In this document: positions 7,498 through 63,255 of the stretch, in pieces | Position numbering within the stretch: position 1 is the first letter of the stretch | Layout of the letters: every line of letters starts with the position of its first letter | Source of the DNA: a virus | IMG/VR virus record: IMGVR_UViG_3300034105_002232 | Length of the DNA stretch: 64,000 nt | Reading direction: 5' to 3' (one strand) | Notes under the pieces: model-generated | Seen by the model: only the letters and a program-made list of their open reading frames with translations | What the model was told of the DNA's origin: nothing | The model's database searches: none | Position numbers and translations under genes: made by a program

Positions 7498-8766
7498 TTA
7501 TTTGCCTTTCGCTGCATCTTCGTAATGCGCCCAAATACCCCATGGTGGTTCACAACCAGGATTGCCTTTGATGATCCATACTGTTTCACAGTAACTTTCC
7601 TCGCCCCACTCACCAAATGGCATGCCGTCTGTGAACATGATAAACTTCTTGGGTTCAATTGCGTTGTCTTTCATAAACTCCCAATTGGCCATGAAGTCTG
7701 TGCCACCACCTCCGGCAGGTTCGTACTCCATAATGTCGTCAATGTTGTCTGACGTATATGTCTGCACGTTATAGATTTCAGTATCAAAGCACCACAGCGT
7801 GATCTTGTACTCGTCAAAGGCTTCCATAATACCTTTGATCTCACCCAAGAACGCTTTGCTATCTTCCTCACTGATACTACCTGATTGGTCCATAGCAATA
7901 CATACATCAATCATCTCACCTGGCTTGAGCCCTGGCATGATGGCATCCATGTGCCATCCTTTGCGACTTGGTCTAGCCCATGTATAATCGTTCTTGATTG
8001 TGCTTTGAATCTGTTGTTGCAGTAGCTCTTTCCAACCAATGACTGGTTCTGTTAAGTCTCTTAACAAACGTTTGACACCGCTGGGTAAATTGCCTGCGCC
8101 TGCACTTTGTGCAGCAGCAATCACAGCACCTTTAATTTCGTCCTTGATAGCATCACGTTCTTCTTTGCTCAACCGAGGCCGCTTTCCACCCTGCTCATCC
8201 CCGTCGTCACCTGATCCGCCGTTACCATCTTCATCTTCTTCTAAATGATCATCAAGAATCATTTGTTCAAGTTGATCAATATTGATCTTTTTTGCATTCT
8301 GATAAAGATAGTCATATACTTCTTCGTAACTCATATCCTTGAACTTGTTGTCAAACAAGATTGGGCATACACTGATCTTCTCACCAATGCGCTGTTCTAT
8401 CAAGTCTTGATTGACGCAGTAGTCTGCAGCAATATTGCTTAGTCTTGGTTGACGATCACCGCGCCGACCCATGTGATCATAAACCGCATGCAGAATCTCA
8501 TGCCCAACCAAAAACTCAAGTTGTTTCAGCGGCATCTTGTCAACAAACTCGCTGTTGTAATAAAATTTACGTCCGTCTGTAGCAGCAGTGCCGCACCAGG
8601 CATCAGCATTGGTCAAGGTCATTCTGGTTGCCAGCTGCCCAAAGAACGGAGCCTTTAACAACAAGCCAATACGGGCAGTAGTAAGTTTCTCTCTAGCAAC
8701 GGCATCTGTTTTTGGATTCGTTACTGTGACTACGTTGGACTTGTCAATTGCTGTACTTTCAGCCAT
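7498..8766 (-). CDS. HEXXH metallopeptidase-like plus VWA domain protein (DUF2201-like)
   Basis: TAATDG, HEILH, MIDAS DQSGS, GGGGTDF, FTDG; paired with AAA ATPase. Confidence 0.88.
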   Translation of the reverse strand: MAESTAIDKSNVVTVTNPKTDAVAREKLTTARIGLLLKAPFFGQLATRMTLTNADAWCGTAATDGRKFYYNSEFVDKMPLKQLEFLVGHEILHAVYDHMGRRGDRQPRLSNIAADYCVNQDLIEQRIGEKISVCPILFDNKFKDMSYEEVYDYLYQNAKKINIDQLEQMILDDHLEEDEDGNGGSGDDGDEQGGKRPRLSKEERDAIKDEIKGAVIAAAQSAGAGNLPSGVKRLLRDLTEPVIGWKELLQQQIQSTIKNDYTWARPSRKGWHMDAIMPGLKPGEMIDVCIAMDQSGSISEEDSKAFLGEIKGIMEAFDEYKITLWCFDTEIYNVQTYTSDNIDDIMEYEPAGGGGTDFMANWEFMKDNAIEPKKFIMFTDGMPFGEWGEESYCETVWIIKGNPGCEPPWGIWAHYEDAAKGK

Positions 8767-40211: not shown

Positions 40212-40780
40212 TGTGGTAACCTTTGTTGAATAAGTTTAACAACCTCGGTGTTCAATACCACTTCATAATGATTACAGTCCAGTTCAATCAGTTCCATGAT
40301 ATCATTGCGTTTCTTTTGGCTGGACACTGTTACTACTCCGTCGTTGGGTTTAGATAACCAAGGTGAATCACCTTGTGTAGTAACTATGTTGCACCATGGC
40401 TGTTTTACTTGGATATCTCTGGCATACCGCATGGCCCACGAATTTGGTCCAATGTCTTTTAACAGTCTGCTGTACGGCAAAAAATACTTGGCCACATCAG
40501 CAACTTCGGCGCCGCCATAAGGAGTGCTTAGTGTAATTGCTCCCAGCACCTGATCCGGGAATTCAGCTGCCAGGTGCAAGGCATACACACCACCTAGACT
40601 ATGACAAACGAAGAACATGTCTTTTTTGTTTGCCAACTGATAACGCATATCAGCTAGATTTTTTTCAAACCCGTTACGACTATCATAATTGATCAGCCAA
40701 TCGTTGCCGCCCACGTGTTCTCTAATATAGTTGAAACTCTCACTAGTAGCACTGGCACCATGGATATAAACTATTACCAT
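40208..40780 (-). CDS. alpha/beta hydrolase (lipase/esterase-like)
   Basis: YIHG, HSLGG nucleophile elbow, STPYGG, NDGVV, His. Confidence 0.88.
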   Translation of the reverse strand: MVIVYIHGASATSESFNYIREHVGGNDWLINYDSRNGFEKNLADMRYQLANKKDMFFVCHSLGGVYALHLAAEFPDQVLGAITLSTPYGGAEVADVAKYFLPYSRLLKDIGPNSWAMRYARDIQVKQPWCNIVTTQGDSPWLSKPNDGVVTVSSQKKRNDIMELIELDCNHYEVVLNTEVVKLIQQRLPQ

Positions 40781-41934
40781 TATGTTCGATACTCCGGCCA
40801 TAAGTCAGCAAACCGGTATTTGAAGTCGGGCCAATAAGTCTGCTCTTGCTTGGAGTGCCACTCATATAAATCATTGCAGTTGTCTTTGCTGGTAGTTGTG
40901 TTTCTAATGCTGTTGGCCATTTCTTGTAAGAAAGTTTTTTGTCTATGCCATTTATGGTACGGTATAGATTTTTCTAACTCTTGTGCTGCCAGATCCCTAA
41001 ATTGTTTAGGTAAATTAATTACTGATAATACAACAGGGTTATTAAGTTCATTCCATCTCATATTTGGCAAATTATTATCGGCAAAGTATTCGTGTACCTG
41101 TGATAAATTTAATGCGTTGTAAACCGAATACACACTGGCTACCCCAATTAAATGCCCAGGCCGATCCTTTACAGCATCCTGCAGATACCTGATATTTTTT
41201 AACAGTAAATCCCAACTGGCTCCATGCCTGACATACTCAAATTTCTGCTCTACTGTGTCAAAGCTGATATCCCACACCACACGATTTTTGTCCAGTAACT
41301 TTTTAAATATTTGATTATTTTCTAATGGAACACTTAGGTTTGTTATTAGATTGATATGTACATCAGGGCCAATGGCATCCAGCAATTGATCATTTTCTTT
41401 TTGCAATAATGGTTCACCACCAAGTAGTCCTAGATTTTTCAATGTACTTTGATTTGACTCAATGAATGCGATTATTCCAGGCATGGTGTTCCTGTAGTCT
41501 AATCTTTCTAACGGAATTTTCTGATGAGACGCCCATATACTACTTGCTTCGGGACCGCAATAGGTACAACTAAGATTGCAGGTATTAGACCAACGTATAT
41601 CTAAGTTTTGTAGATGCTGATCTTGGATAGTATCAAGATTAATAGTTTTTCTTTCTGATATATCATTATACCAATTTCTTTCGCTGGTACTAGTCATTTG
41701 TTCCTGTCTTTCACAGATAGAACAATTCTCATGAGTTTTATTTTCTGCAATTGCCTGTTTGATATGTAAGATCTGGCTAGATTTAATTACATCTTGTATT
41801 GGGGTTATTCGTAAATCTGCCAGGGCAACTTCGCCAGCACAGCAGGTTTTGTAAGACCCTTGTGGATTGATGTGTATGTTGGTCCAAGGTGCGTAGCAAA
41901 AGTTTTTGCCAATTGAATTATCAAGTTTTATCAT
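40780..41934 (-). CDS. radical SAM protein with twitch/SPASM-like N-terminal domain
   Basis: CYAPW...CC...C..C; CNLSCTYC; GGEPL. Confidence 0.88.
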   Translation of the reverse strand: MIKLDNSIGKNFCYAPWTNIHINPQGSYKTCCAGEVALADLRITPIQDVIKSSQILHIKQAIAENKTHENCSICERQEQMTSTSERNWYNDISERKTINLDTIQDQHLQNLDIRWSNTCNLSCTYCGPEASSIWASHQKIPLERLDYRNTMPGIIAFIESNQSTLKNLGLLGGEPLLQKENDQLLDAIGPDVHINLITNLSVPLENNQIFKKLLDKNRVVWDISFDTVEQKFEYVRHGASWDLLLKNIRYLQDAVKDRPGHLIGVASVYSVYNALNLSQVHEYFADNNLPNMRWNELNNPVVLSVINLPKQFRDLAAQELEKSIPYHKWHRQKTFLQEMANSIRNTTTSKDNCNDLYEWHSKQEQTYWPDFKYRFADLWPEYRT

Positions 41935-41969
41935 TGAATTACCGTTAAAATGCGGCCTAGGCCGCATTG

Positions 41970-42404
41970 TTATTTAAGTGTTGAACGTAACTGCCAACTA
42001 TGTTTTGCATGTGCGTCTTGTCGATCAGCCAAGAAATTACTTAGACCGTGTTCGCCTAATTCTTCGGCTGCCATGAACACAATCTTGAACATCTCCTGCA
42101 TTTTTACAGAGTCTGCCAACAATTGTGCTACCATCTCATCAGGTTGCAGTATGTCTGTCTCGTCATCAATGCCCGACAGCATGCTGAACCGAGAAAACGA
42201 TCCGGGCGTATAAGATCCAATCTTGCGAATATTTTCAGCAAATGGATCAATGCTACCGTACACTTCTTCGTATATGTTGCCAAACAAGTCATGCAACTGT
42301 GAGAATAGCGGTCCCTCCACGTTCCAATGAAAATAGTGCGCTTTTAAATAAAAAGCAAATTCACTTGCAAATGCTATCTTCAACGCCTTTTGTAATTCAT
42401 TCAT
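41970..42404 (-). CDS. dps: Dps / ferritin-like DNA protection protein
   Basis: HWNVEG..F..LH..F...Y, D..AE.IR, K..WQL. Confidence 0.93.
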   Translation of the reverse strand: MNELQKALKIAFASEFAFYLKAHYFHWNVEGPLFSQLHDLFGNIYEEVYGSIDPFAENIRKIGSYTPGSFSRFSMLSGIDDETDILQPDEMVAQLLADSVKMQEMFKIVFMAAEELGEHGLSNFLADRQDAHAKHSWQLRSTLK

Positions 42405-42549: not shown

Positions 42550-44397
42550 TTATTTGGGTACACAGTTATTTACTCTTACTCCGCCCTTGACTTTGGTTTT
42601 AGGGCTGCCAATTTTTTTGCCCTTCCAACATTTAGGATCTAGGCGAACTTTTTCTTCCTGTAGTCCGTATCCGGCACGTTCAAGTTCTTCCATGTAACTC
42701 TCAATGGATTCAGTCATGCTGCGATCATGTGCGCGATGTGCTGCACGATCACGGTCAGCATCAGGTTCGTGTCCTGTGGTTTTTTTCTTTGGTGCATCAT
42801 ATTGGTCGCCACGGATGCCTTTGTACACACGTTTGCCAGTTTTAGGATCATCCTCGTAGTGATGACGTTCACCTGGGCGTAGACTTTCCTTCATGCTTTT
42901 GGCTTGGTCAGCTGCAATTTCTGCACGTAGTGCATCAATTTCTGCTTGTTTTTGTGCAGCCAGTTTCTTGTAATAGCTGGGGTCTGGCAATCCACGCTTC
43001 TTGCGTAGTTCTTGATGCTGTTGATGCAACTTGTCCTGCACTGAAGTTTCTGTCATGCTGTAGCCAGGGCATTCCATCATGCCGTGTTCGCTGCAGTAAC
43101 GACCTTCGTTGGTCATGTTACAACCAGCTTCACCTAAGCCAAGTGCTTTTTCCTGTTGCTGTTTTATTTTGTCAAGCTGTTTGAATCTGTTTCGCTTATA
43201 CTCGGTGTGTAATTTGGCACCGTAAGTTTCCTCTACACCTTGTTCGTTCTTGATCCATTCGTCCGGAGTCATTCCATATTTTTCAACAAACTGGTCGTGC
43301 AATTCTTTAGGAGTAACATTTGACTTGTTGGCAATGGTCTGCATCATATGATCTATTGCGTTATAACTATGCGGATTTTTTAAATCTTTTGCTAAGTCTT
43401 CAACAGCACCTTCCGCTACACCTACATTTGCTGTATGTACAACTTTGAAATCTTGATGATTAGCAAACATCTTGGTCATGAGATATTTTTGTGCTTGATC
43501 TTTGGTTTCAAAACTAGGAGTGTTCAATACTGGATTGCCAGAATTTTTATACACAATATGATAACCGGTCAAAGGCTCATCAAATCTGTTGCCTTCCGCC
43601 ACACCTTGCCGCTCGGCAAAGTTTTCTTTAGCAATATGTTTAGTTGGATCAAATTGTTTACCTGACATAGAGGCAATAATTTGTTGATATTTGTGATCTC
43701 CAAGGAATCCTGGATCGTTAAGTTTTTGTTTTACTAAGTCCTTAAACTCAGGACGCTCACGCCAGTTCCAAGAATCACCATTGAGTGGTGTAACAAGACT
43801 AAATCCTGGTTTGCGAGGATCACCATTGTTGTCAGTTACTTTTAGATGCTTGCCGTAGATTTCATCAAAATTCAAGCCTTCCGCCACACCTTGTTGACCA
43901 ATCTGTACTAGCCACTCAAGTTCATCCTCAACTTCTTTAACAGCGAAGAATTTGACATTAGGAATTTGTTTTGTATCAAACCATTTGTTAGCTACTTTGA
44001 CCATCCAAGCACGATGTTGAGGGTCGCTTGAGTTTGGTTCATACTCACCGGTCATGTTAATCCAAAGTGGATGTACATTGCCGTCCATATCGTACCCTAC
44101 TAGTTCGCGCCATTCTTGTTCCAATTGATCAGGAACAAACTGATCTAATTCAGTATCGCTCATCCACTCTTGGCCAATGTCCAAGCCTTCAGCCACACCT
44201 TGTTGTTCACGCTTTCTCAATTCCCGGCGAATCAATGTTTTAAATTTTAATTCATTACGACCCATTACACCTGGTCTTAGCATTGCTTTCAGTTCATCGG
44301 TACTATGTTTGCTGTAGTCTGCACCACCTGGCGCTATCTGGTCAACTCGGCCTTCCGCCACACCTTGCTTTTTATTAAAAAAATCATTAATAAACAT
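42550..44397 (-). CDS. modular (polyprotein-like) probable internal head protein with QGVAEG linkers
   Basis: 615 aa; six QGVAEG-like repeats separate unrelated segments. Confidence 0.6.
   Translation of the reverse strand: MFINDFFNKKQGVAEGRVDQIAPGGADYSKHSTDELKAMLRPGVMGRNELKFKTLIRRELRKREQQGVAEGLDIGQEWMSDTELDQFVPDQLEQEWRELVGYDMDGNVHPLWINMTGEYEPNSSDPQHRAWMVKVANKWFDTKQIPNVKFFAVKEVEDELEWLVQIGQQGVAEGLNFDEIYGKHLKVTDNNGDPRKPGFSLVTPLNGDSWNWRERPEFKDLVKQKLNDPGFLGDHKYQQIIASMSGKQFDPTKHIAKENFAERQGVAEGNRFDEPLTGYHIVYKNSGNPVLNTPSFETKDQAQKYLMTKMFANHQDFKVVHTANVGVAEGAVEDLAKDLKNPHSYNAIDHMMQTIANKSNVTPKELHDQFVEKYGMTPDEWIKNEQGVEETYGAKLHTEYKRNRFKQLDKIKQQQEKALGLGEAGCNMTNEGRYCSEHGMMECPGYSMTETSVQDKLHQQHQELRKKRGLPDPSYYKKLAAQKQAEIDALRAEIAADQAKSMKESLRPGERHHYEDDPKTGKRVYKGIRGDQYDAPKKKTTGHEPDADRDRAAHRAHDRSMTESIESYMEELERAGYGLQEEKVRLDPKCWKGKKIGSPKTKVKGGVRVNNCVPK
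43225..44367 (-). repeat. dispersed in-frame 18-bp repeat CAAGGTGTGGCGGAAGGC
   Basis: Identical copies at 44350-44367, 43876-43893 and 43591-43608; one mismatch at 44185-44202; degenerate at 43408-43425 and 43225-43242. Confidence 0.9.
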
Positions 44398-44406
44398 AAT
44401 ATCCTC

Positions 44407-44916
44407 TTAAATTGCCTGGGTTCTTAGTGCTGCTATTTGCGACGTTAGGTCTTCAATTTGTCCTTGAATGGCAATTTTTTGTGACTGAGTATCTCTAAGA
44501 CTCATGGCTTTTTCAACTGGATTGGCACCTTGTGGGAAAGCTCTGTTCAGCTGTGCAATTTGTCCTCGTGCTCCAGCCAGCTGTGCAGTTAATCCACCAA
44601 CTTGGCCTTTTATTTCGTCTTTCTGAGCTTTACGTTGCTGACCCATGGCAAACTCCTCTGCAGGGTTTCTGGCTGTGTCGTTACCAATACCGGATCCAGG
44701 TGCACCGTATTCTGCAAGATACTGTTCAAATTCCGCACGCAGGCTTTGTTCAACACTTTCGTCTGTGCCACCATCACCTACCAGGCGTCCTTTAAAAGGA
44801 TGACCTTTCTTGCTTGTGCGAGCTTTTTCTGTGCCACGCACTTGATCACCGGGCTTTTGACCCACTGCTTGTCCAGCAAATGACATCTTCTCTAATAGGT
44901 CGCGCATGTTGCTCAT
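44407..44916 (-). CDS. hypothetical, probable virion/internal protein
   Basis: QKPGDQVRG...HPF.GRLVG motif and coiled coil. Confidence 0.6.
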   Translation of the reverse strand: MSNMRDLLEKMSFAGQAVGQKPGDQVRGTEKARTSKKGHPFKGRLVGDGGTDESVEQSLRAEFEQYLAEYGAPGSGIGNDTARNPAEEFAMGQQRKAQKDEIKGQVGGLTAQLAGARGQIAQLNRAFPQGANPVEKAMSLRDTQSQKIAIQGQIEDLTSQIAALRTQAI

Positions 44917-45740
44917 TAGTAAACGCCTTTGCCCACAGCAACTTTTTTCATCTTGGCAGCATTGCCCAGTTTCTTAGGTACGCCTGATGTTGGCTTGTGT
45001 GCTGGTCCGCCCATGCTTGTGGCAACACCTGCTGAACTTGATCCACCACCTGTGGCCATTTCGCTGACCTGACGACTTTCGTCGTATTTGTTGTACTTGT
45101 CTCTAATCTTGTCTAAATCTTTGCCTTCACGACCTGCTTTAGCCAATGCCGCCATGCCCTCTTTGCCGTACTTCTCATGGCCTTTGGCAGCACGACTCAT
45201 GCCTTTTTGGCCATCCTCGCCTAGGCTAGCTTGTCCTGCAACAGCTTTACCTGTTGGCTTAGAACTTATTCCTGTGCGACTTGATTTCATTTTTTCTTTG
45301 CCGCCACCAATGTGTCTACTACCGCCTAAACGTTCAGATTGTCTTGGTTTATGTGTTTTACCTACTGTGGGTTTGTTCTTAGATAAGAAATCAGCCACAG
45401 CATCATCATAATCATCTTCTACTAGCAGCTGATCAAATGCATACTCTGCAGCTTCAGCTGTGAAGCTCATCATGACCTGCTCTTGATCATGCGCCATTTC
45501 GTGTGACAAATACTCATGTACTGTACGCAAATAGTCATTTGCTAGAGTGATCTTTTCGCTTACCCAGCCATCCAGGCCTTGCTGTTCGCTAACTTCTTTA
45601 AGCATACGGTGCAGTTCAATTGCATATTTGGCTGCACTATAGCAATCACTGCGGGCCATTTGTACTTCATGGTCAGAATGCATGTCATCTGCTTCTTGTG
45701 CAATTTGACTAGTTTCTACAATAAATTCTGTTGGTTTCAT
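44916..45740 (-). CDS. hypothetical, probable internal head protein
   Basis: N-terminus MKPTEFIVE resembles the T4 capsid-targeting sequence; DHEVQMAR..., WV..KIT.A.DYL. Confidence 0.6.
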   Translation of the reverse strand: MKPTEFIVETSQIAQEADDMHSDHEVQMARSDCYSAAKYAIELHRMLKEVSEQQGLDGWVSEKITLANDYLRTVHEYLSHEMAHDQEQVMMSFTAEAAEYAFDQLLVEDDYDDAVADFLSKNKPTVGKTHKPRQSERLGGSRHIGGGKEKMKSSRTGISSKPTGKAVAGQASLGEDGQKGMSRAAKGHEKYGKEGMAALAKAGREGKDLDKIRDKYNKYDESRQVSEMATGGGSSSAGVATSMGGPAHKPTSGVPKKLGNAAKMKKVAVGKGVY

Positions 45741-45769: not shown

Positions 45770-46069
45770 TTAGCTTACGACAAAGGTCAGTTGTTTGCTG
45801 CCTGGGTCAATGTGATTGGGGTGTAATGCGCCGGGATTGCCTTCAACAACCAGATTTTCTAATTTAAAATCGCCATGGCACGAACAATTCTCAACTCTCA
45901 CAGTGTGAATGCCAGGATCTAAATTGCAAACCATATGCTCACGAATATAAATTTGATAACCTGCCCAACTAAACGTGCGTTCTGTCAGCAGGTCGTTATC
46001 AACATAAATTCTATAACTTGGAGGTGCTTCGCTCCAATGACAATGCACATCGGCTGACATGTGTATCAC
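45770..46069 (-). CDS. hypothetical protein
   Basis: P.YRIYVDNDLLTERTF motif. Confidence 0.65.
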   Translation of the reverse strand: MIHMSADVHCHWSEAPPSYRIYVDNDLLTERTFSWAGYQIYIREHMVCNLDPGIHTVRVENCSCHGDFKLENLVVEGNPGALHPNHIDPGSKQLTFVVS

Positions 46070-46911
46070 GGCTGCCTGTTCTTTCTAGCGGCCAGTTGAG
46101 TATGAATCATGTCCATTTGTTCTTTGAGCTTTTTATAGCGCTTGGTTAGATGGAGCCCAGCCATCATCTTGGGCAATGTGGCAGCAGTTACATCATTGTC
46201 GTTGCCCATGGTGGCCATGCTGTAACGTGGGTCATTGCCATTTTTGACCACCCCTACTCCAGCTGCATCTTCGGCCATGGTTTGCGGAATCTTGTCTAGC
46301 ACACGGCCCAGTTCTGCATCATCTCTGCCGTACATTTGCAGCAAAAATGCACTACGCTGCTTGGGGTCGTTGCGTACTAGATTCCAGGCCTGTCTGGTTT
46401 GAGTACCATGACTGACATCTACTGATTGTCCGTTGATATCAATTACTTTGTGTCTTTCGTCTGCTATTATAACATAGCCGTGTTGATCTGCTGTGGCACA
46501 TTCTTTTAAATTTTTGAAGGTTTTAAAGTACCCAGGATTGCCATCTTTTTTGACACTGTCTGGCGCTAGACGCTGTGCATCCGGTGCACCCACTGCTGCT
46601 ACAAAGATGGTATTTGCAGCATTAAACTGTGCAGGCAGTTTATACGGACTTGCGACTTCTAATATACGGTCACTGGGAATGCCCGCAGCATGCATCAGTA
46701 TACTTTTGTCTGTAAAATTGAATGGGCTTTTTGGAGGTTCGGTCTTGTTACTGGTTGCAATAAACACACTGTCACGACCAAATTTACCTTGCAGGCTTTG
46801 AAATACTTCCCGATGCCCCAAATGAAAAGGCTGGAACCGACCTGGATATAATACCACCAGTTGCGGTGCAGCCTCGTCTAAATACCTCTCAAATAAATTA
46901 GCAATAAACAT
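46066..46911 (-). CDS. cytidylyltransferase-like (HIGH) nucleotidyltransferase
   Basis: YPGRFQPFHLGH, SPF.F..K, S.T..R. Confidence 0.8.
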   Translation of the reverse strand: MFIANLFERYLDEAAPQLVVLYPGRFQPFHLGHREVFQSLQGKFGRDSVFIATSNKTEPPKSPFNFTDKSILMHAAGIPSDRILEVASPYKLPAQFNAANTIFVAAVGAPDAQRLAPDSVKKDGNPGYFKTFKNLKECATADQHGYVIIADERHKVIDINGQSVDVSHGTQTRQAWNLVRNDPKQRSAFLLQMYGRDDAELGRVLDKIPQTMAEDAAGVGVVKNGNDPRYSMATMGNDNDVTAATLPKMMAGLHLTKRYKKLKEQMDMIHTQLAARKNRQP

Positions 46912-48592: not shown

Positions 48593-49315
48593 TTATTCCT
48601 GTATACACACCAGCTCACAAACTTCTCTTATGATGTCTGGACAGATAATACGTACCAAATTAGCTACACCAACATCGTTGGTGTAAAAATAACAATTCCA
48701 CATCCAATCTCCATCTTTGACCAACTGCTCTGTGGTATTTTTAGGCAGCTTGACCAAATCTCCCAGTTGCTGCAGATAGTTATGGACCTGCGTCCTTGAT
48801 TTTATGTCAAACCGTTTCTCTTTAAGGTATATTCGATATCTAAATTTTGGTTGTCTATTTACTATTATTGCGTTGCCTTGCAACCACTGACTACTGACAT
48901 CAGATTCTGGGCCTGTAGCAGACAGTATCTGATGTCGAAACTGGACACCAATGGCCAATGCTATGGATTGTAGTATTGATTCTGATTCGGCATAGAAGCT
49001 GATTTTTGGCTCTTCAATCCTGACCCTTATGTCAGCATGTTTGTGTATCAGTCTTTTGAGATCAATCAGCAGACCCAGATCAGCTTCTTTGAGTTGCTCT
49101 TTTAGCTTACGGTCCCACCACGATCCGCCTCCCAGTGAATACGATCGAGCACATGATTGCCGGTGCTGTAGATTGGCCTTGATATCATCGTACCGGATAC
49201 TCTTGCAACCAGGAGCGTAAATTTCTAATCGATAAAGATACTGTTTAAAATACTGTTTGGCAGTATATTGTATCTTTGTATCTTTAGACAGGTTCTGCCA
49301 GAACAATGTATCCAT
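48593..49315 (-). CDS. hypothetical phage protein
   Basis: 240-aa ORF. Confidence 0.65.
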   Translation of the reverse strand: MDTLFWQNLSKDTKIQYTAKQYFKQYLYRLEIYAPGCKSIRYDDIKANLQHRQSCARSYSLGGGSWWDRKLKEQLKEADLGLLIDLKRLIHKHADIRVRIEEPKISFYAESESILQSIALAIGVQFRHQILSATGPESDVSSQWLQGNAIIVNRQPKFRYRIYLKEKRFDIKSRTQVHNYLQQLGDLVKLPKNTTEQLVKDGDWMWNCYFYTNDVGVANLVRIICPDIIREVCELVCIQE

Positions 49316-51563
49316 TTTCGTCTATTCTATAGGTTGAATCGGTATTCGCGATTGGTTGAAATGTAAACTCTTTGTCATGAAAATCAATTATGATAGTGCT
49401 CACTGGCGCAATCTTGTCAAACAATATGCGTTTACTCAATGGCACTTTGATTAGATCGTTGATTTTTCTCTGCAAAGGTCTTGCACCCATTTTGGGATCA
49501 AATCCTGTGGTAATCAATTCATCAACAGCAGCTTCAGTTAGTCTTACACGTAACTGTTTGTCTATTAGAAGATCATTTAATTCTGCAATAAACTTGCTAA
49601 CAATTTTACGCATACTTAGATCATCTAATTTAGAAAATTTAACAATACCATCTAAACGATTTCGGAATTCAGGTTTAAAGAATTCTTTAACAGCACGATC
49701 ATCTTCTTGATTTTTTTGTAACTCTTTACCAAAGCCAATGTTGTTTTTTTCGTTGTCTGCTGCACCAAGATTGCTGGTTAAAATAATCATGGCATTACGA
49801 CAGTCAGCTTTCTTACCATTGCTGCTGGTAATTGTGCCTTCGTCCATCATTTGCAGCAAAATGTTACTAACGTCGGGATGAGCTTTTTCAATTTCATCCA
49901 TCAAGATAATGCAATTGGGATTTTTTTCAATGTCACTGATCAGCAACCCACCACCCAGATTGCCATCCTCGTAGCCAACATAACCAGGGGGTGCACCAAT
50001 AAGTTTAGCAACAGTATGTCGCTCTTGGTATTCACTCATGTCATACCGCAGCAGTTTCATACCAAGATTTTCTGCCAGCAACTTGGCCAGTTCTGTTTTG
50101 CCTGTGCCAGTTGGTCCCAAGAACAAGAAGTTACCAATTGGTTTGTTTAGGGCTTTTAATCCTGCACGGCTCACATAGATTTTTTCTAATACTGTATCTA
50201 CTGCAGCATCTTGACCGTACAGTCGATCCTTGATGCCAACTTCAAGATTTTCAATTCCTTTGGCACCTTCGGTGTTGCCAATTGATTCAATTGGCAATCT
50301 TGTCAACCGGCTGATGGTGTGTACAATATCGGCACCCGAAACAATCCAATTGGTATCTTTGATTTTGAGTCGAGCACACGACGCATCTATTAGGTCAATG
50401 GCTTTGTCGGGCAATTTTTTATCAGTTTGATAACGCACACTTAGATCAACTGCGGTGTTAATGGCATCATCAGTGATGGTGCCTCCGTGGAATTTTTCAA
50501 AGTGTAATCTTAACCCAAACAAGATATCTTTGGCAACTTCAGCACTGGGCTCATCAATGGTGATCCGTTGGAATCTGCGCATCAGAGCACGATCTTTTTC
50601 AAAACTCTGGCTATATTCTTCCCAGGTAGTACTAGCAATAACTTTAATTCGGCCTTTGCTCAATGCAGGTTTGATCATGTTACTAAAGTCCACACTGCTT
50701 TGACTTCCTGCTCCTGCTCCACGCATCTGGTGTGCTTCATCGATGAACAAGATCGCTTTGCCTTTTACATTTAGTGCAGCCAGTACCTCGTGAATTTTTT
50801 CTTCAAAGTCGCCGCGATACTTGCTACCTGCTAGCAAACTACTAATATCAAGATTGTACACTGTGTAGTCTAATAGATATTCTGGTACCGTTTTTAACAC
50901 AATTGCCAAAGCCAATCCTTCTGCAATAGCAGTCTTACCAACGCCAGGATCGCCTACCATTAGTATATTGCTTTTGTTGCGGCGTGCAAGAATTTCTACT
51001 ATTTCGTTGGTCTCGGCAGCACGTCCAATCACTGGGTCAATCTTGCCGTCCTCGGCCTGGGTGTTGAGATTGTCACAATACCGTTCAAGTATCTTGTCTG
51101 CCTGGCCGGCATTTGCAACTGTCTTGCCTGCGTCTGATTTATACTCTTTGTTGTATGTCTCTATTAGTTTTGCACGATCAAGACCATACTTGACCATGAA
51201 ATAATGTGCGTAGCTGTTGGATTCTGCATGTATGCTCAAGAATAAATCTAATATTTGAATATGCGTTCTTGCACTAAACAGGACCTGAGTAAATGCTCGA
51301 TTAAACACCCGTTCCAGAGCATGGGTTTTTTTAGGATCACTGGTATCGTTGACAAGATATGTTTGATTGGCAAGATAATCTTCGATGTCGGTTTCTAATC
51401 CTTTGATATCTGTTCCGTATCCGGATAGAAGCTCTTGGAAGGGAGTATATCGTATCATGCTTAAAAACACATGTTCAAGGGTCACATACTCATGACTTAA
51501 ACTTTTAGCCAGTTCAGTGGCTTCAACTACAATGTAATCAATTTCAGGGTTGGTTTGTAACAT
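49284..51563 (-). CDS. clpA: ATP-dependent Clp protease ATP-binding subunit
   Basis: Clp-N HEYVTLEH, GDPGVGKT, GPTGTGKT, DEIEKAH, IGF loop; no ClpB middle domain. Confidence 0.93.
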   Translation of the reverse strand: MLQTNPEIDYIVVEATELAKSLSHEYVTLEHVFLSMIRYTPFQELLSGYGTDIKGLETDIEDYLANQTYLVNDTSDPKKTHALERVFNRAFTQVLFSARTHIQILDLFLSIHAESNSYAHYFMVKYGLDRAKLIETYNKEYKSDAGKTVANAGQADKILERYCDNLNTQAEDGKIDPVIGRAAETNEIVEILARRNKSNILMVGDPGVGKTAIAEGLALAIVLKTVPEYLLDYTVYNLDISSLLAGSKYRGDFEEKIHEVLAALNVKGKAILFIDEAHQMRGAGAGSQSSVDFSNMIKPALSKGRIKVIASTTWEEYSQSFEKDRALMRRFQRITIDEPSAEVAKDILFGLRLHFEKFHGGTITDDAINTAVDLSVRYQTDKKLPDKAIDLIDASCARLKIKDTNWIVSGADIVHTISRLTRLPIESIGNTEGAKGIENLEVGIKDRLYGQDAAVDTVLEKIYVSRAGLKALNKPIGNFLFLGPTGTGKTELAKLLAENLGMKLLRYDMSEYQERHTVAKLIGAPPGYVGYEDGNLGGGLLISDIEKNPNCIILMDEIEKAHPDVSNILLQMMDEGTITSSNGKKADCRNAMIILTSNLGAADNEKNNIGFGKELQKNQEDDRAVKEFFKPEFRNRLDGIVKFSKLDDLSMRKIVSKFIAELNDLLIDKQLRVRLTEAAVDELITTGFDPKMGARPLQRKINDLIKVPLSKRILFDKIAPVSTIIIDFHDKEFTFQPIANTDSTYRIDENGYIVLAEPV

Positions 51564-51571
51564 AATAATAT

Positions 51572-52441
51572 TTATTGGTTAGAGAGTAAATTTTTAATGG
51601 AAAGTTTCTGTGACTCATTTAAATCAGTAGGTACTATGATGTTAATAACAATTATTAAATTTCCTCTATGTGATTGATTCATTGCATACAAACCCTGTTG
51701 CTGTATTCTAAATCTTGATCCTGGTTGAGTACCTGCAGGAACAGCCAGATCAAATTTACGACCGTCTAATCCTTGTAATTGAATAGTGGCACCCACAATG
51801 GCATCTAAGCAATTTAGATCCACAGCTTTAATTAGATCTAAATTGTCAACATTAAAACCTGACGCACCTTCAACATGCAGTCTAACATACAAGTCGCCGC
51901 GTGTTAAACTAGGAAAAAAGTTATCACCTAGTCCAGGATACTTGATTGTGCTGTTGGGTGTAACACCTCGGGGTATCTGGACCTCAACAGTGACACGCTC
52001 ACCGTTTGTGGTTTGAACACTAATAGTCTTTGTTTGAATGTCCAAGGTACTAACCAGGCTGACCACTACATCAACCTGGATGTCTTTGTTTTTTCTTGGT
52101 TGCCTAAATTGCGAAAATGGATCGCTGTGTGCTGCAAATCCTGGGCCAAAACTGAACCCAAAATTTCTCAGCATGTCTTCCATGTGTGATGGTATGTCAC
52201 CGTTGGTATCGTGCCCATTCACAGTAAATCTGAATCCACCGTGATGTCCTTGTCGTTCAGCATCATACTGTGCCCGAGTCTGATCTGTGCCTATTGTGTC
52301 GTAGGCATGTTGTATTTTCTGGAAGTGGGTAGTATCCCCACCTTTGTCAGGATGGTGTTGATTGGCCAACTTACGATATGCTTTTTTAATTTCATCCAGA
52401 CTGGCAGACTCAGGAACTCCCAAGGTATCATAATGTGTCAT
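51572..52441 (-). CDS. dnaJ: DnaJ-class co-chaperone (no zinc finger, CbpA-like)
   Basis: J domain with HPD, G/F region, C-terminal GDLYV domain. Confidence 0.9.
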   Translation of the reverse strand: MTHYDTLGVPESASLDEIKKAYRKLANQHHPDKGGDTTHFQKIQHAYDTIGTDQTRAQYDAERQGHHGGFRFTVNGHDTNGDIPSHMEDMLRNFGFSFGPGFAAHSDPFSQFRQPRKNKDIQVDVVVSLVSTLDIQTKTISVQTTNGERVTVEVQIPRGVTPNSTIKYPGLGDNFFPSLTRGDLYVRLHVEGASGFNVDNLDLIKAVDLNCLDAIVGATIQLQGLDGRKFDLAVPAGTQPGSRFRIQQQGLYAMNQSHRGNLIIVINIIVPTDLNESQKLSIKNLLSNQ

Positions 52442-60406: not shown

Positions 60407-61408
60407 ATGCTGAACTACAAAGATATACGCCGCGTACACCTTGAGATAAGCACCAGGTGTAATGCGGCGTGCCCTGAATGTCCACGAAATTTTCGTGGTG
60501 TTGACATAGTAGACACCTATCCCATATGTGATATGAGTTTAGATCAGGCAAAAAAGATCTTTACAACTTCTTTTTTATTACAATTAGATCAAATTCTCAT
60601 CAATGGCAATTACGGTGATTTTATCACTGCACATGATGGTCTGGAGATTGTGGAATATTTTTTAACAGTCAATCCCAACATAAAAATCATAATCAGCACA
60701 AATGCCAGCGGCCGTCCACATATATGGCGTCAATTAGGTGAGCTTGGGGTAGAAGTTCAGTTTAGAATTGATGGACTAGCAGATACTCATCATCTGTATA
60801 GACAATATACAAACTTTGAATTAATATTGGAGAATGCATTAAAGTTTATACAAGCAGGAGGCTATGCCATATGGGCAATGATTAAATTTGATCATAACAA
60901 ACATCAGATATCTCAGGCTGAAATATTATCTAAAGCAATGGGATTTAAAAGATTTGAATTGGTTGATGCTGGTAGGGACACCACTGTGGTCTTTACTAGA
61001 GATAAACAACTTAGTCACGTAATAGGCAATTATCAAGGACCAACAGACTATGATTTATTATATGATCAATATCAACAGTATATTAGCAATCCTGACATTA
61101 CTTTAAAAAAAGTACAAATACAAGAACGAACCATTAAATGTTATTCAAAAGAAAATAAAGAAGTATATGTGTCTGCCAATGGAGAAATATATCCTTGTTG
61201 TTGGTTAGGATTTTATCCTCTTAGTAAACAAGGAAATCCTAGTACGTTTCAGTTACGGCCGTTAATTAAAGAAAATAATGCACTTGAATATAGCATAGAA
61301 CATGCAATCGCATGGTTTAATCAAATTGAGTCTACGTGGAGTAAAACAGTACTAGATGGAAAAATCTATACTTGCAATGAGACCTGCGGGAGTAGAGCTG
61401 TAAGTTGA
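60407..61408 (+). CDS. radical SAM protein with C-terminal twitch domain
   Basis: CNAACPEC, GNYGD, STN, C...YPCC...C..TC. Confidence 0.88.
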   Translation: MLNYKDIRRVHLEISTRCNAACPECPRNFRGVDIVDTYPICDMSLDQAKKIFTTSFLLQLDQILINGNYGDFITAHDGLEIVEYFLTVNPNIKIIISTNASGRPHIWRQLGELGVEVQFRIDGLADTHHLYRQYTNFELILENALKFIQAGGYAIWAMIKFDHNKHQISQAEILSKAMGFKRFELVDAGRDTTVVFTRDKQLSHVIGNYQGPTDYDLLYDQYQQYISNPDITLKKVQIQERTIKCYSKENKEVYVSANGEIYPCCWLGFYPLSKQGNPSTFQLRPLIKENNALEYSIEHAIAWFNQIESTWSKTVLDGKIYTCNETCGSRAVS

Positions 61409-62115: not shown

Positions 62116-63255
62116 TTACTCCTTTAACAAAGCCGTTAGTTTTGGTAAGTAATCATTTATGTTCAAATTTCTAAACTCCTTTGTAAGATTGATTTCTTCA
62201 AAAAATTTATTCCGCATAGACGATGAGTAATTTACTGTTTTAATATAATCAACTAAAAATGATAAATTAAAGTTTATTTCCTGCAAATATGTAATTATAC
62301 TATGCTTTTCTTTATCATTGAATATTTGTAGAGAGTAATGCAACGGATATTCGCAAAATATCCATGCAGGTTCAATTTTTAGTTCTTGCACTAATTCGAT
62401 AACAGGATCCAAATACAATATGTTTAACGCACTTATTACAGTATGAGTATTAAAACTGATGTTAGATTCACGCAAAAATTTAATATTATTTAAAACAGCA
62501 TCCCAACTACCTGTAGTTCTAATGTAATAAAATTGCTCTTTGGTGGCATCTAAGCTTAATGTGATATGTACTTTTTTAAATTTCTTAAGTGTATCGTGCA
62601 TTTTACCATGAATTTCTACAGTTCCGTTAGAAGTGTAATATAAGGTACAATTTGATGAGTTGCCGTCACTAATAATCTTTTCTAATATCTTCAGATGACT
62701 TAAATTTAAGAAAGGTTCACCGCCCATAATAGATACTTTTTCGACTGAACTAAAATCTTCGTTACAAACATTCTCTAATAGAGATTGTGTGTATCCGGCA
62801 CCTGTATATTTTTTATTTGGGAATAATTTCTTATGCTTCCATTCATCCTCAATCCAATGACTAGAACTTGACCATGATCCGCAGGTCCTGCAGGCCAAGT
62901 TACAATTGATCCCGCTATTAATTACTAAATTTTTTATTTTCTTATCAACGATCTGTTTGTTGTATGTGTCATGTAATTGTTCCAAGGTTGGATTATCATC
63001 TTGAAATAGCGCATATTGCCGTAAACTTGTTATTCCGTTGTTCTCATCGTCCCAGCACCCGCTACATTCAACACTTTTTATTCCTTTTAAAATATTTTTT
63101 TGGATATTCACAACTGTAGGAGAATTAATTAGGTTATGGAACGTTATGTTTTTTTGTCCTGGTATCGAAACCTCGCAACAAATGTTTGATAATCGATGAT
63201 CAAATCCACCAAAGGCATTGGTGCAATAGGTGTTAAGATTTAATTTGTCTGTCAT
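62116..63255 (-). CDS. radical SAM protein with twitch/SPASM-like N-terminal domain
   Basis: CC...C.GCW..E; CNLACRTC; GGEPF; TSNG. Confidence 0.87.
   Translation of the reverse strand: MTDKLNLNTYCTNAFGGFDHRLSNICCEVSIPGQKNITFHNLINSPTVVNIQKNILKGIKSVECSGCWDDENNGITSLRQYALFQDDNPTLEQLHDTYNKQIVDKKIKNLVINSGINCNLACRTCGSWSSSSHWIEDEWKHKKLFPNKKYTGAGYTQSLLENVCNEDFSSVEKVSIMGGEPFLNLSHLKILEKIISDGNSSNCTLYYTSNGTVEIHGKMHDTLKKFKKVHITLSLDATKEQFYYIRTTGSWDAVLNNIKFLRESNISFNTHTVISALNILYLDPVIELVQELKIEPAWIFCEYPLHYSLQIFNDKEKHSIITYLQEINFNLSFLVDYIKTVNYSSSMRNKFFEEINLTKEFRNLNINDYLPKLTALLKE

What the first reader, a model, noticed from the sequence alone, without database searches (positions are those of the whole stretch)
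42550..44397. ORF built from in-frame cassettes bounded by a conserved 18-bp DNA repeat (QGVAEG): candidate shufflable virion polyprotein
Seen: CAAGGTGTGGCGGAAGGC occurs three times identically (44350, 43876, 43591), once with one mismatch (44185) and twice degenerate (43408, 43225). Repeat-to-repeat spacings are 165, 309, 285, 183 and 183 bp, all in frame, and the segments between repeats show no similarity to one another. Identity extends to synonymous positions (GGT GTG GCG GAA GGC) in an AT-rich genome, which points to DNA-level conservation rather than only protein-level selection. Established: T4-type prohead proteases cleave after Glu in hydrophobic-x-E motifs, and V-A-E fits. Inference: each repeat is both a recombination handle for gaining, losing or swapping 55-103 aa modules and a protease site releasing them as separate small proteins inside the capsid for injection. 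That would be an integron-like array of effector cassettes within one gene.
Basis: partly seen in the sequence, partly recalled or inferred. Interest (0 to 1): 0.87.

Follow-up and report, generated by a model that had tools for sequence, protein, structure and literature searches.

The report
Shufflable phage cargo polyprotein with DNA-fixed linker
One gene of an uncultured T4-like giant lake phage strings seven unrelated small protein modules together with a six-residue linker whose 18-base spelling is fixed across many phages; related phages gain, lose and swap modules exactly at it, and it also looks like (but is not shown to be) a cutting site for the head-maturation protease.

Summary
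Observation confirmed. ORF 42550-44397 (minus strand, 615 aa) has a 15-aa leader and seven mutually unrelated modules joined by Q-G-V-A-E-G. Three junctions carry the identical 18-mer, one differs by one base, and two are degenerate.

The DNA-level conservation is real:
- The chance of this spelling given local codon usage is about 0.001.
- The exact 18-mer occurs in at least 120 IMG/VR contigs between more than 100 unrelated flanks. A better-codon synonym gives 12 hits.
- None of 85 invariant DNA-polymerase hexapeptides keeps its 18 nt across the same six genomes.

Metagenome variants 98-100% identical in DNA lack exactly one module, with the breakpoint inside the repeat. At least 12 architectures share the same C-terminal part. 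The "recombination handle" reading is therefore supported.

Cleavage and packaging are inferred, not shown. The same modules occur alone behind T4-CTS-like leaders ending in hydrophobic-x-Glu, at the position of the linker Glu. Relatives encode a gp21-type protease, and their capsid propeptide and scaffold are dense in the motif.

No integrase was found, so the integron likeness is analogy only. This scan reported the same system before on other genomes. No paper found describes it.

The parts
42550..44397 (-). Polyprotein ORF, 615 aa, own ATG with an AAGAGGA ribosome-binding site 9 nt after the stop of the upstream gene
44353..44397 (-). N-terminal leader, aa 1-15 (MFINDFFNKKQGVAE), proposed capsid-targeting sequence ending at the first linker Glu
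   Evidence: T4 CTS MKTYQEFIAE from PMC8442874
44350..44367 (-). Linker repeat 1, exact 18-mer (QGVAEG, aa 11-16)
   Evidence: breakpoint of variant L122
44188..44352 (-). Module A, aa 16-70, 6.2 kDa, pI 10.0; absent from variant L122
44185..44202 (-). Linker repeat 2, one synonymous mismatch (GCT)
43879..44187 (-). Module B, aa 71-173, 12.1 kDa, pI 4.2. A confident compact alpha/beta domain (pLDDT 91.5) with no clear known fold. It recurs at about 70-80% identity in many proteins of different architecture
43876..43893 (-). Linker repeat 3, exact 18-mer
43594..43878 (-). Module C, aa 174-268, 10.9 kDa; absent from variant L121. Also found next to ART, ParB, nucleotidyltransferase and GNAT domains, and alone behind MRAxEFVTE leaders
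43591..43608 (-). Linker repeat 4, exact 18-mer
43411..43593 (-). Module D, aa 269-329, 6.9 kDa; found alone behind MKTLREMMDLIE leaders
43408..43425 (-). Linker repeat 5, degenerate (VGVAEG); point where homology with L123 and L124 resumes
43228..43410 (-). Module E, aa 330-390, 7.0 kDa. The only part with hits in cultured phages (S-CRM01 gp34 and other cyanophages; phrog_10346). Found alone behind MRADEFVTE leaders
43225..43242 (-). Linker repeat 6, degenerate (QGVEET)
42553..43227 (-). Constant C-terminal part, aa 391-615 (modules F and G). It holds further hydrophobic-x-Glu sites (GLGE|A, SMTE|T, SMKE|S, SMTE|S), a Cys-rich stretch and a terminal CW...NCV motif. It is at least 95% identical in all close orthologues

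Best explanation
The gene belongs to an uncultured freshwater T4-like jumbo phage and encodes a cargo polyprotein: a short N-terminal leader followed by independent small modules of 3-19 kDa. SHOWN: each junction is a discrete 18-20 nt element (CAAGGTGTGGCGGAAGGC, always read as Q-G-V-A-E-G). Its nucleotide sequence is kept far beyond what the peptide requires. It is the physical breakpoint at which modules are deleted, inserted and exchanged between phages. INFERRED MECHANISM 1: the highly recombinogenic T4-type replication and recombination machinery uses the 18-nt identity as microhomology. Every exchange stays in frame and at a domain boundary. The exchanges in turn keep the linkers identical, through conversion or hitch-hiking and possibly through selection for exchangeability. 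INFERRED MECHANISM 2: the leader acts like the T4 capsid-targeting sequence and carries the chain into the prohead core. The gp21-type prohead protease then cuts after the Glu of each hydrophobic-x-Glu junction (V-A-E|G). The released modules stay in the head and are injected with the DNA as a changeable payload, probably of host-takeover or anti-defence proteins. The functions of the seven modules themselves are unknown.
For: Junction as breakpoint. L121 (98.7% and 100% nt identity in the two flanks) equals the window minus the 285 bp between repeats 3 and 4. L122 (98.6%) equals the window minus the 165 bp between repeats 1 and 2, with an overlap of exactly 18 nt. Syntenic L123 (91-96%) and L124 carry unrelated modules between repeat 1 or 2 and repeat 5; at least 12 architectures share modules E-F-G at 95% identity or more; of 140 exact sites, 132 are open in the QGVAEG frame on both sides. 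Their flanks fall into 112 upstream and 115 downstream clusters, and 17 of 21 recurrent upstream modules are joined to more than one downstream module.

DNA-level fixation; the codon-usage probability of the 18-mer is 0.001; at least 120 contigs (capped) hold the real 18-mer, against 12 for the best-codon synonym; the flanks carry about 0.1 bit per position beyond 2 nt. Third codon positions vary no more than first or second positions, and the Glu GA is nearly invariant; the gene beside the Dps-like gene in G001, G003 and G004, and a gene about 3 kb from it in G005 (Dps only 47-65% aa identical), is again a leader-plus-linker polyprotein with the exact 18-mer but no module homologous to the window's; 0 of 85 invariant DNA-polymerase hexapeptides keep identical 18 nt across the six genomes; pairwise 2.5% are identical, with a mean of 3.6 differences.

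Protease and cargo reading; modules B, C, D and E also exist as stand-alone small proteins behind leaders such as MRAxEF[VI]TE|G. The module begins at the same residue after the leader Glu as after the linker Glu. 151 of 223 M-start homologues have hydrophobic-x-Glu within their first 22 residues. The T4 CTS is MKTYQEFIAE, removed by gp21 (PMC8442874; PMC9026906); relatives with 71-82% identical DNA polymerase encode Peptidase_S77 (gp21) and Gp23; in the closest complete relative, the capsid protein has 4 motif sites in its first 42 residues and 1 in the other 350, and the scaffold has 17 in 373 residues; proteins sharing modules B or C carry ART, ParB, nucleotidyltransferase and other enzyme domains, which are typical of packaged effectors (PMC5512222); module B folds as a self-contained domain whose limits match the linkers.
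Against: There are no proteomic or biochemical data, so cleavage and packaging are untested. The window holds no head genes and its own genome is not held, so the protease is known only from relatives; 2 of the 5 large relatives gave no PF03420 or PF07068 hit. The gene lies in the replication and metabolism region about 3.5 kb from the DNA polymerase, not in a head module, and no T4-type late promoter lies nearby. In the window's protein the P3 residue is Val at all six GVxE linkers; further candidate sites have Leu or Met at P3, whereas the T4 sites I know of have Leu or Ile. Eighteen nt is short for homologous recombination, and the deletions could equally arise by replication slippage. Whether the nucleotide identity is a cause of the exchanges or a result of them is unresolved. 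Several modules are acidic (B pI 4.2, E pI 4.8), unlike the basic T4 internal proteins.
Confidence: 0.6

Rival explanations
1. This is an uncleaved multidomain protein. The linker is only a flexible spacer that doubles as a recombination joint. The protein works as one chain in the infected cell and is not packaged.
For: The gene sits among replication and metabolic genes. No late promoter was seen. There is no direct evidence of cleavage. The shuffling evidence is fully compatible with this reading.
Against: A spacer would tolerate Asp or other residues at the Glu position, yet the Glu GA is almost invariant. The same modules occur alone behind CTS-like leaders that end in hydrophobic-x-Glu at the same register. 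The motif is used as in T4 in the capsid propeptide and scaffold of relatives. In T4 the internal-protein and alt genes also lie outside the head module (my own knowledge).
Confidence: 0.2
2. The 18-mer is the recognition site of a dedicated enzyme, such as a site-specific nuclease, a recombinase or a template-switching factor. That would make this a true integron-like cassette system acting inside a gene. Its nucleotide sequence would then be fixed by that recognition rather than by general homologous recombination.
For: The element is sharply bounded (18-20 nt, with the flanks at about 0.1 bit). It is identical across genomes whose core genes are saturated at silent sites. That is stronger conservation than microhomology alone would seem to need. 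The window encodes an HNH endonuclease at 7498-8766.
Against: No integrase or recombinase lies near the gene. The 18-mer is not palindromic and has no attC-like hairpin. T4-type recombination is reported to need only small patches of homology (under 50 bp; PMC2839356). No co-occurring candidate enzyme was identified.
Confidence: 0.12
3. The repeat is trivial: a recent internal duplication, identity by recent common descent, an assembly artefact or chance.
For: Repeats within one ORF can arise by duplication, and metagenome assemblies can be chimeric.
Against: The modules between the repeats are unrelated. The exact 18-mer sits between more than 100 unrelated flank families in contigs from many JGI and ENA samples. 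One variant contig's record name (k141_83412) suggests an assembly k-mer far longer than 18 nt. Shuffles expect 0.04 copies. The synonymous control gives a tenth as many hits or fewer.
Confidence: 0.02

Closest known systems
Phage T4 internal proteins IPI, IPII, IPIII and Alt, with the capsid-targeting sequence (CTS) removed by prohead protease gp21
   Same: Both have a short N-terminal leader ending in hydrophobic-x-Glu (T4: MKTYQEFIAE; here MFINDFFNKKQGVAE, and MRAxEFVTE in stand-alone relatives). Both carry otherwise unrelated small cargo proteins that share only the leader. The loci are hypervariable between related phages. A T4-type protease, capsid protein and scaffold are present in the lineage (PMC9026906, PMC8442874, PMC12373910).
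   Different: Here several cargo modules are concatenated in one reading frame, with the cleavage-type motif repeated internally. There is no sequence homology to the T4 IPs. Packaging and cleavage are untested. The junction is conserved as DNA.
PeSL mobile regulatory cassettes and IP-locus flanking elements that mediate modular shuffling in T4-type phages (Arbiol et al. 2010, PMC2839356; Repoila et al. 1994 as cited there)
   Same: Short conserved sequences flanking non-essential ORFs serve as recombination points. Close relatives therefore differ by whole cassettes, and excision between two flanking copies deletes one cassette, as in L121 and L122.
   Different: PeSLs are intergenic elements of about 100 bp with a promoter and a stem-loop. 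They shuffle whole genes, each with its own expression signals. Here the element is an 18-nt in-frame coding sequence inside one gene, and it shuffles protein domains rather like exon shuffling. No promoter or hairpin is involved.
Polyvalent proteins of phages and conjugative elements (Iyer, Burroughs, Anand, de Souza, Aravind 2017, PMC5512222)
   Same: Both are long proteins that combine many unrelated domains in mosaic architectures and are predicted to be packaged and delivered with the DNA. Proteins sharing modules B and C carry ART, ParB and nucleotidyltransferase domains.
   Different: That paper proposes built-in metallopeptidase domains for autoprocessing and never uses the word 'linker' in its main text (0 occurrences). 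This ORF has no recognisable enzyme or peptidase domain, and its joints are a uniform, DNA-fixed motif.
Integron gene-cassette arrays
   Same: Both are ordered arrays of unrelated cassettes bounded by a recurring sequence, with gain, loss and reordering of single cassettes.
   Different: There is no integrase, attI or attC hairpin. The cassettes here are in-frame protein modules of one ORF, not promoterless genes.

Membership tests
T4-type capsid-targeted internal proteins (CTS plus gp21 processing) | N-terminal leader of about 10-20 residues ending in hydrophobic-x-Glu | tested here: met
   aa 1-15 end in V-A-E. 151 of 223 M-start homologues have such a leader, many of the form M-[RK]-A-x-E-F-[VI]-T-E. 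T4 CTS: MKTYQEFIAE (PMC8442874).
T4-type capsid-targeted internal proteins (CTS plus gp21 processing) | The phage encodes a gp21-type (Peptidase_S77) prohead protease with a T4-type capsid protein and scaffold | tested here: inconclusive
   The window has no head genes and its genome is not held. PF03420 and PF07068 are present in 3 of 5 large relatives, including the closest (DNA polymerase 82% identical). The motif is dense in their capsid propeptide and scaffold.
T4-type capsid-targeted internal proteins (CTS plus gp21 processing) | The protein is present in virions and is cut after the leader Glu | not testable with these tools
   This needs virion mass spectrometry or a protease assay.
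T4-type capsid-targeted internal proteins (CTS plus gp21 processing) | Sequence homology to T4 IPI, IPII, IPIII or Alt | tested here: not met
   Pfam gave no family for the ORF, and PHROGs gave only an unknown-function family for module E. T4 IPs themselves share only the leader (PMC12373910), so this feature is weak.
Polyvalent proteins (Iyer et al. 2017) | Multiple unrelated domains in one polypeptide of a phage, with mosaic architectures among relatives | tested here: met
   Seven mutually unrelated modules; at least 12 architectures.
Polyvalent proteins (Iyer et al. 2017) | Hallmark effector or processing domains (ART, ParB, MuF, zincin peptidase and others) | tested here: not met
   None in this ORF. 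ART, ParB_N, Polbeta nucleotidyltransferase, Pterin_4a and GP88 occur in other proteins that share modules B or C.
Integron | Tyrosine-recombinase integrase next to the array, and attC-type imperfect inverted repeats bounding the cassettes | tested here: not met
   No integrase among the 39 ORFs of the window that were scanned, which include the neighbours of the gene. The repeat is an 18-nt non-palindromic coding string without conserved flanks.
PeSL mobile regulatory cassettes | [quoted passage not shown] | tested here: not met
   The repeat lies in frame inside an ORF. 132 of 140 copies are open on both sides, and conservation ends within 2 nt of the 18-mer.

The most novel reading that the evidence does not exclude
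The 18-nt linker is a dedicated, directly selected recombination signal, possibly read by a specific phage enzyme. It would make these genes an 'intragenic integron': a system evolved to shuffle protein-domain cassettes in frame, with one sequence doubling as DNA exchange site and protease release site. T4-like jumbo phages could then re-assort an injected anti-defence payload at population scale.
Probability: 0.2. Interest if true: 0.92.

Novelty: new variant of a known kind. Interest (0 to 1): 0.78.

Why it matters
Domain shuffling is usually inferred from ancient comparisons. Here it is caught in progress, between phage genomes 98-100% identical in DNA, at a defined 18-nt in-frame junction shared by hundreds of uncultured phages.

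If the junction is also the head-protease site, one short sequence is read at two levels: as a DNA exchange point and as a protein release point. That would explain how T4-like phages diversify an injected payload as quickly as hosts diversify their defences.

It also yields a practical rule. A leader plus Q-G-V-A-E-G delimits hundreds of orphan modules that are candidate host-takeover or anti-defence proteins. The arrangement is also a natural design for packaging several foreign proteins into T4-type capsids.

Tried and rejected
1. Whole genome of the window: not held.
2. Megablast of 8 kb around the gene against cultured phages: no match. tblastn found only module E in cyanophages.
3. The search for related loci with module B alone: nothing.
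4. Module function. Pfam, PHROGs and PDB profile searches gave nothing significant. Module B folds confidently, but Foldseek against PDB and BFVD, VIA-align wide (best Z 4.6, a POTRA-like arrangement, below the noise level stated by the tool) and the Atlas (TM below 0.5) gave no usable match. The Atlas feature search gave no hit. The module C model is of low confidence (pLDDT 63.6) and was not searched.
5. T4 late promoter TATAAATA: two copies in the window, fewer than chance, none near the gene.
6. Internal translation start at the linker: rejected by inspection. The SD-like AAGG lies 1 nt from the GTG, and all copies are read through in frame.
7. Rare-codon pausing as the reason for DNA conservation: this could explain GCG, but not the fixation of all six codons, since GGT and GAA are common codons.
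8. Cluster look-up for NCBI-sourced homologues: no accessions or organism names.
9. Dreher et al. 2011 (S-CRM01 virion proteome): not held, so I could not check whether gp34 is in virions.
10. Complex prediction was not used. An enzyme with a short substrate peptide is outside what that test resolves.
11. The profile search of 1.84 billion representatives with A1 mixed module B with its flanking modules. Only the figure of about 55 clusters at E of 1e-30 or less is usable.
Full report
OBSERVATION

The minus-strand ORF 42550-44397 encodes 615 residues. The 18-mer CAAGGTGTGGCGGAAGGC is exact at 43591, 43876 and 44350, and has one synonymous mismatch at 44185. Shuffles of the window expect 0.04 matches. 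Two degenerate copies (V-G-V-A-E-G at 43408-43425, Q-G-V-E-E-T at 43225-43242) complete a series with spacings of 165, 309, 285, 183 and 183 bp, all in frame. The motif occurs in no other ORF of the window.

The protein therefore reads leader(15) | A(55) | B(103) | C(95) | D(61) | E(61) | F(33) | G(192). The segments are unrelated to each other except for the linker residues, and would give products of 3-19 kDa.

The window has 40.5% GC. GCG makes up 7.7% of its Ala codons, and 1 of 33 Ala codons in this ORF outside the linkers, yet it is used in four of the five linker Ala codons. Given local codon usage, the probability of this spelling of QGVAEG is about 0.001.

WHAT PHAGE

The window carries a T4-type family-B DNA polymerase, a ClpB-like ATPase, DnaJ, a Dps-like ferritin, several radical-SAM proteins and sugar-nucleotide enzymes, but no head genes. 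No whole genome is held, and cultured phages give no nucleotide match.

Five IMG/VR contigs of 262-374 kb have DNA polymerases 71-82% identical to the window's. Three of them, including the closest and complete one (G004), encode a gp21-type prohead protease (Peptidase_S77) and a Gp23 capsid protein. The head module of G004 runs portal, acidic protein, protease, scaffold, capsid protein, as in T4. The window is therefore part of an uncultured freshwater T4-like jumbo phage.

THE LINKER IS A DNA-LEVEL ELEMENT

The synonymous spelling with the window's most frequent codons, about ten times more probable from codon usage, has 12 hits.
- Of 140 exact sites with full flanks, 132 are open for 50 codons on both sides in the QGVAEG frame. 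The flanks fall into 112 upstream and 115 downstream families.
- Most of those loci carry no module homologous to the window's.
- Information content drops to about 0.1 bit per position two bases outside the 18-mer.
- Among 1-3 mismatch variants, changes pile up at position 1 (Q to K or E) and positions 17-18 (G to A, D or E). Third codon positions inside the core vary no more than first and second positions. The GA of the Glu codon is nearly invariant.
- In G001, G003 and G004 the gene beside the Dps-like gene, and in G005 a gene about 3 kb from it, is again a leader-plus-linker polyprotein with the exact 18-mer. Not one of its modules is detectably related to modules A-G of the window, and the Dps proteins are only 47-65% identical.
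- As an internal control I took every hexapeptide that is invariant in the DNA polymerases of the six genomes. None of the 85 keeps identical 18 nt in all six. Only 2.5% of pairs are identical, with a mean of 3.6 differences.

Protein-level selation alone cannot account for this pattern: protein-level selection alone cannot explain the linker's nucleotide identity.

THE LINKER IS THE BREAKPOINT

Among 442 homologues, local alignments start and stop at residues 64-66, 168-174, 260-264 and 326-329, which are the linkers.

Four variants were fetched as DNA and compared with the window:
- L121 is 98.7% and 100% identical in its two flanks and lacks exactly the 285 bp between repeats 3 and 4.
- L122 is 98.6% identical over 3.6 kb and lacks exactly the 165 bp between repeats 1 and 2. 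The two alignments overlap by precisely the 18 nt.
- L123 is a 16-kb syntenic contig (91% identical upstream). It loses homology at repeat 1 and regains it at repeat 5, with unrelated modules in between.
- L124 shares only module B and the C-terminal part.

Among proteins that share E-F-G at 95% identity or more there are at least 12 architectures. Across the 18-mer loci, 17 of 21 recurrent upstream modules are joined to more than one downstream module. Module B recurs at about 70-80% identity in many proteins of varied architecture, mostly bounded by the same linker 103 residues apart; about 55 clusters at 50% identity hold it.

The record name of one variant contig (k141_83412) suggests an assembly k-mer far longer than 18 nt, and the variants come from different JGI and ENA samples. 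Assembly chimeras are therefore not a credible cause.

The data show the opposite.

One suggestive detail: in the window, the exact copies bound the modules that vary among close orthologues (A-D), and the degenerate copies bound the constant part (E, F, G). That fits a model in which exchange and nucleotide identity sustain each other.

IS IT A PROTEASE SITE?

This part is inference. Four lines of evidence point the same way.

First, the same modules exist as stand-alone small proteins behind N-terminal leaders such as MRAxEF[VI]TE, MKIxDILTE or MKTLREMMDLIE. The module starts at the same residue after the leader's Glu as after the linker's Glu in the polyprotein; this holds for modules B, C, D and E. 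Of 223 homologues that start with Met, 151 have hydrophobic-x-Glu within their first 22 residues. The T4 capsid-targeting sequence is MKTYQEFIAE. It directs IPs, and foreign proteins fused to it, into the prohead core, and it is removed by gp21 (PMC8442874; PMC9026906; PMC7411985). The leader of the window's ORF is a longer version ending in the first linker.

Second, the lineage has the T4-type protease.

Third, in the closest complete relative the motif [LIVM]-x-E followed by a small residue behaves as in T4. There are four sites in the first 42 residues of the capsid protein and one in the remaining 350. There are 17 in the 373-residue scaffold (4.6 per 100 residues), against 0.7 per 100 in the portal. 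The window's ORF has 1.6 per 100, against about 0.5 in most other ORFs of the window.

Fourth, proteins that share modules B or C carry ADP-ribosyltransferase, ParB_N, nucleotidyltransferase, GP88 and pterin-dehydratase domains. ART and ParB are hallmark domains of packaged polyvalent proteins, and T4 Alt is a packaged ART (PMC5512222).

Module B is predicted with high confidence (pLDDT 91.5, pTM 0.83) as a compact alpha/beta domain whose limits coincide with the linkers. This fits release as a folded unit.

Against this reading:
- No virion or cleavage data exist.
- The gene lies near the DNA polymerase, not in a head module.
- No T4 late promoter is nearby.
- Two of the five large relatives gave no protease or capsid hit.
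- Some modules are acidic, unlike T4 IPs.

MECHANISM OF EXCHANGE

T4-type recombination is reported to need only small patches of homology (under 50 bp; Singer et al. 1982, cited in PMC2839356). Recombination between short conserved flanking elements (PeSLs) is known to delete, insert and circularise cassettes in T4-type phages.

The deletions seen in L121 and L122 are exactly what recombination, or slippage, between two 18-nt direct repeats gives. Replacement by foreign modules needs exchange with another phage or locus at two linkers.

No integrase or recombinase is encoded near the gene, and the 18-mer has no hairpin. "Integron-like" therefore describes the outcome, not the machinery. I cannot decide whether the nucleotide identity is selected for exchangeability, is a passive result of repeated exchange (conversion), or reflects recognition by a dedicated enzyme.

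COMPARISON AND NOVELTY

The closest known systems are:
- the T4 internal proteins with CTS and gp21 processing, which work alike, although membership is unproven;
- PeSL-type modular shuffling, which gives the same outcome but uses an intergenic element of about 100 bp carrying expression signals;
- polyvalent proteins, which have the same mosaic, probably packaged architecture, but whose source paper never uses the word "linker" in its main text (0 occurrences).

The string GVAEG appears in no phage paper of the searchable library. I rate this a new variant of known kinds: in-frame, exon-shuffling-like exchange of cargo modules at a junction that is probably read both as DNA and as a protease site.

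This scan has reported the same system on other genomes, and those notes agree with what I tested here. This window adds three things: nucleotide-resolution presence/absence polymorphism of single modules between 98-100% identical genomes, the leader/linker register equivalence, and the polymerase-hexapeptide control.

VERDICT

The recombination-handle reading is supported by direct comparison. The protease and cargo reading is plausible and internally consistent but untested. The functions of the modules are unknown.

Noticed in passing
window 44916-45740 (-): The 274-aa neighbour starts MKPTEFIVE|T, very close to the T4 CTS MKTYQEFIAE. Its homologue in relative G003 (L147 9526-10296) continues with GVAEG-type linkers and other modules. 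It is probably another capsid-targeted protein of the same system.
   Followed up: partly
window 46066-46911 (-): A cytidylyltransferase-like protein (PF01467) starts with a leader-like MFIANLFERYLDE|A. A cytidylyltransferase was detected in the virion proteome of cyanophage S-CREM2 (PMC10665884), so this enzyme may also be packaged.
   Followed up: partly
P0224 (metagenome protein); window 45138-45164 (-): A 126-aa metagenome protein joins module A, through ...QQGVA, to the C-terminal part of the 274-aa neighbour. The join lies at a linker-like GGCATGGCGGCA in that gene (E-G-M-A-A). It looks like an exchange at a degenerate copy of the junction.
   Followed up: partly
stand-alone homologues P0166-P0178, P0213-P0221: There is a second recurrent joint, E-N-F-A-D-G, followed by a strongly basic tail of about 50 aa. 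It follows modules C and E in stand-alone proteins. In the window, module C ends ...ENFAE-RQGVAEG. In T4, Asp at the cleavage position blocks processing, so this joint may be uncut.
   Followed up: no
window 42553-42645 (-), aa 585-615: The C-terminal CW-x(16-18)-NCV motif is a mobile mini-module. It occurs at the N-terminus of other polyproteins; in one protein of this family (P0064) Pfam DUF7230 matches residues 11-48, a similar N-terminal position. The motif also occurs in S-CRM01 gp34, which lies between the small and large terminase genes.
   Followed up: partly
window 40780-41967, 60407-61408, 62116-63255, 41970-42404, 49284-52441: The window has three radical-SAM/SPASM proteins, a Dps-like ferritin and a ClpB-like ATPase with a DnaJ. 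This is an unusual auxiliary set for a phage.
   Followed up: no
G002 (342,865 bp, 99% complete) and G005: These relatives share the DNA polymerase (71-72% identical) and the exact 18-mer, but gave no Peptidase_S77 or Gp23 hit. Either their head genes are too divergent for the models, or these phages use another head module.
   Followed up: no
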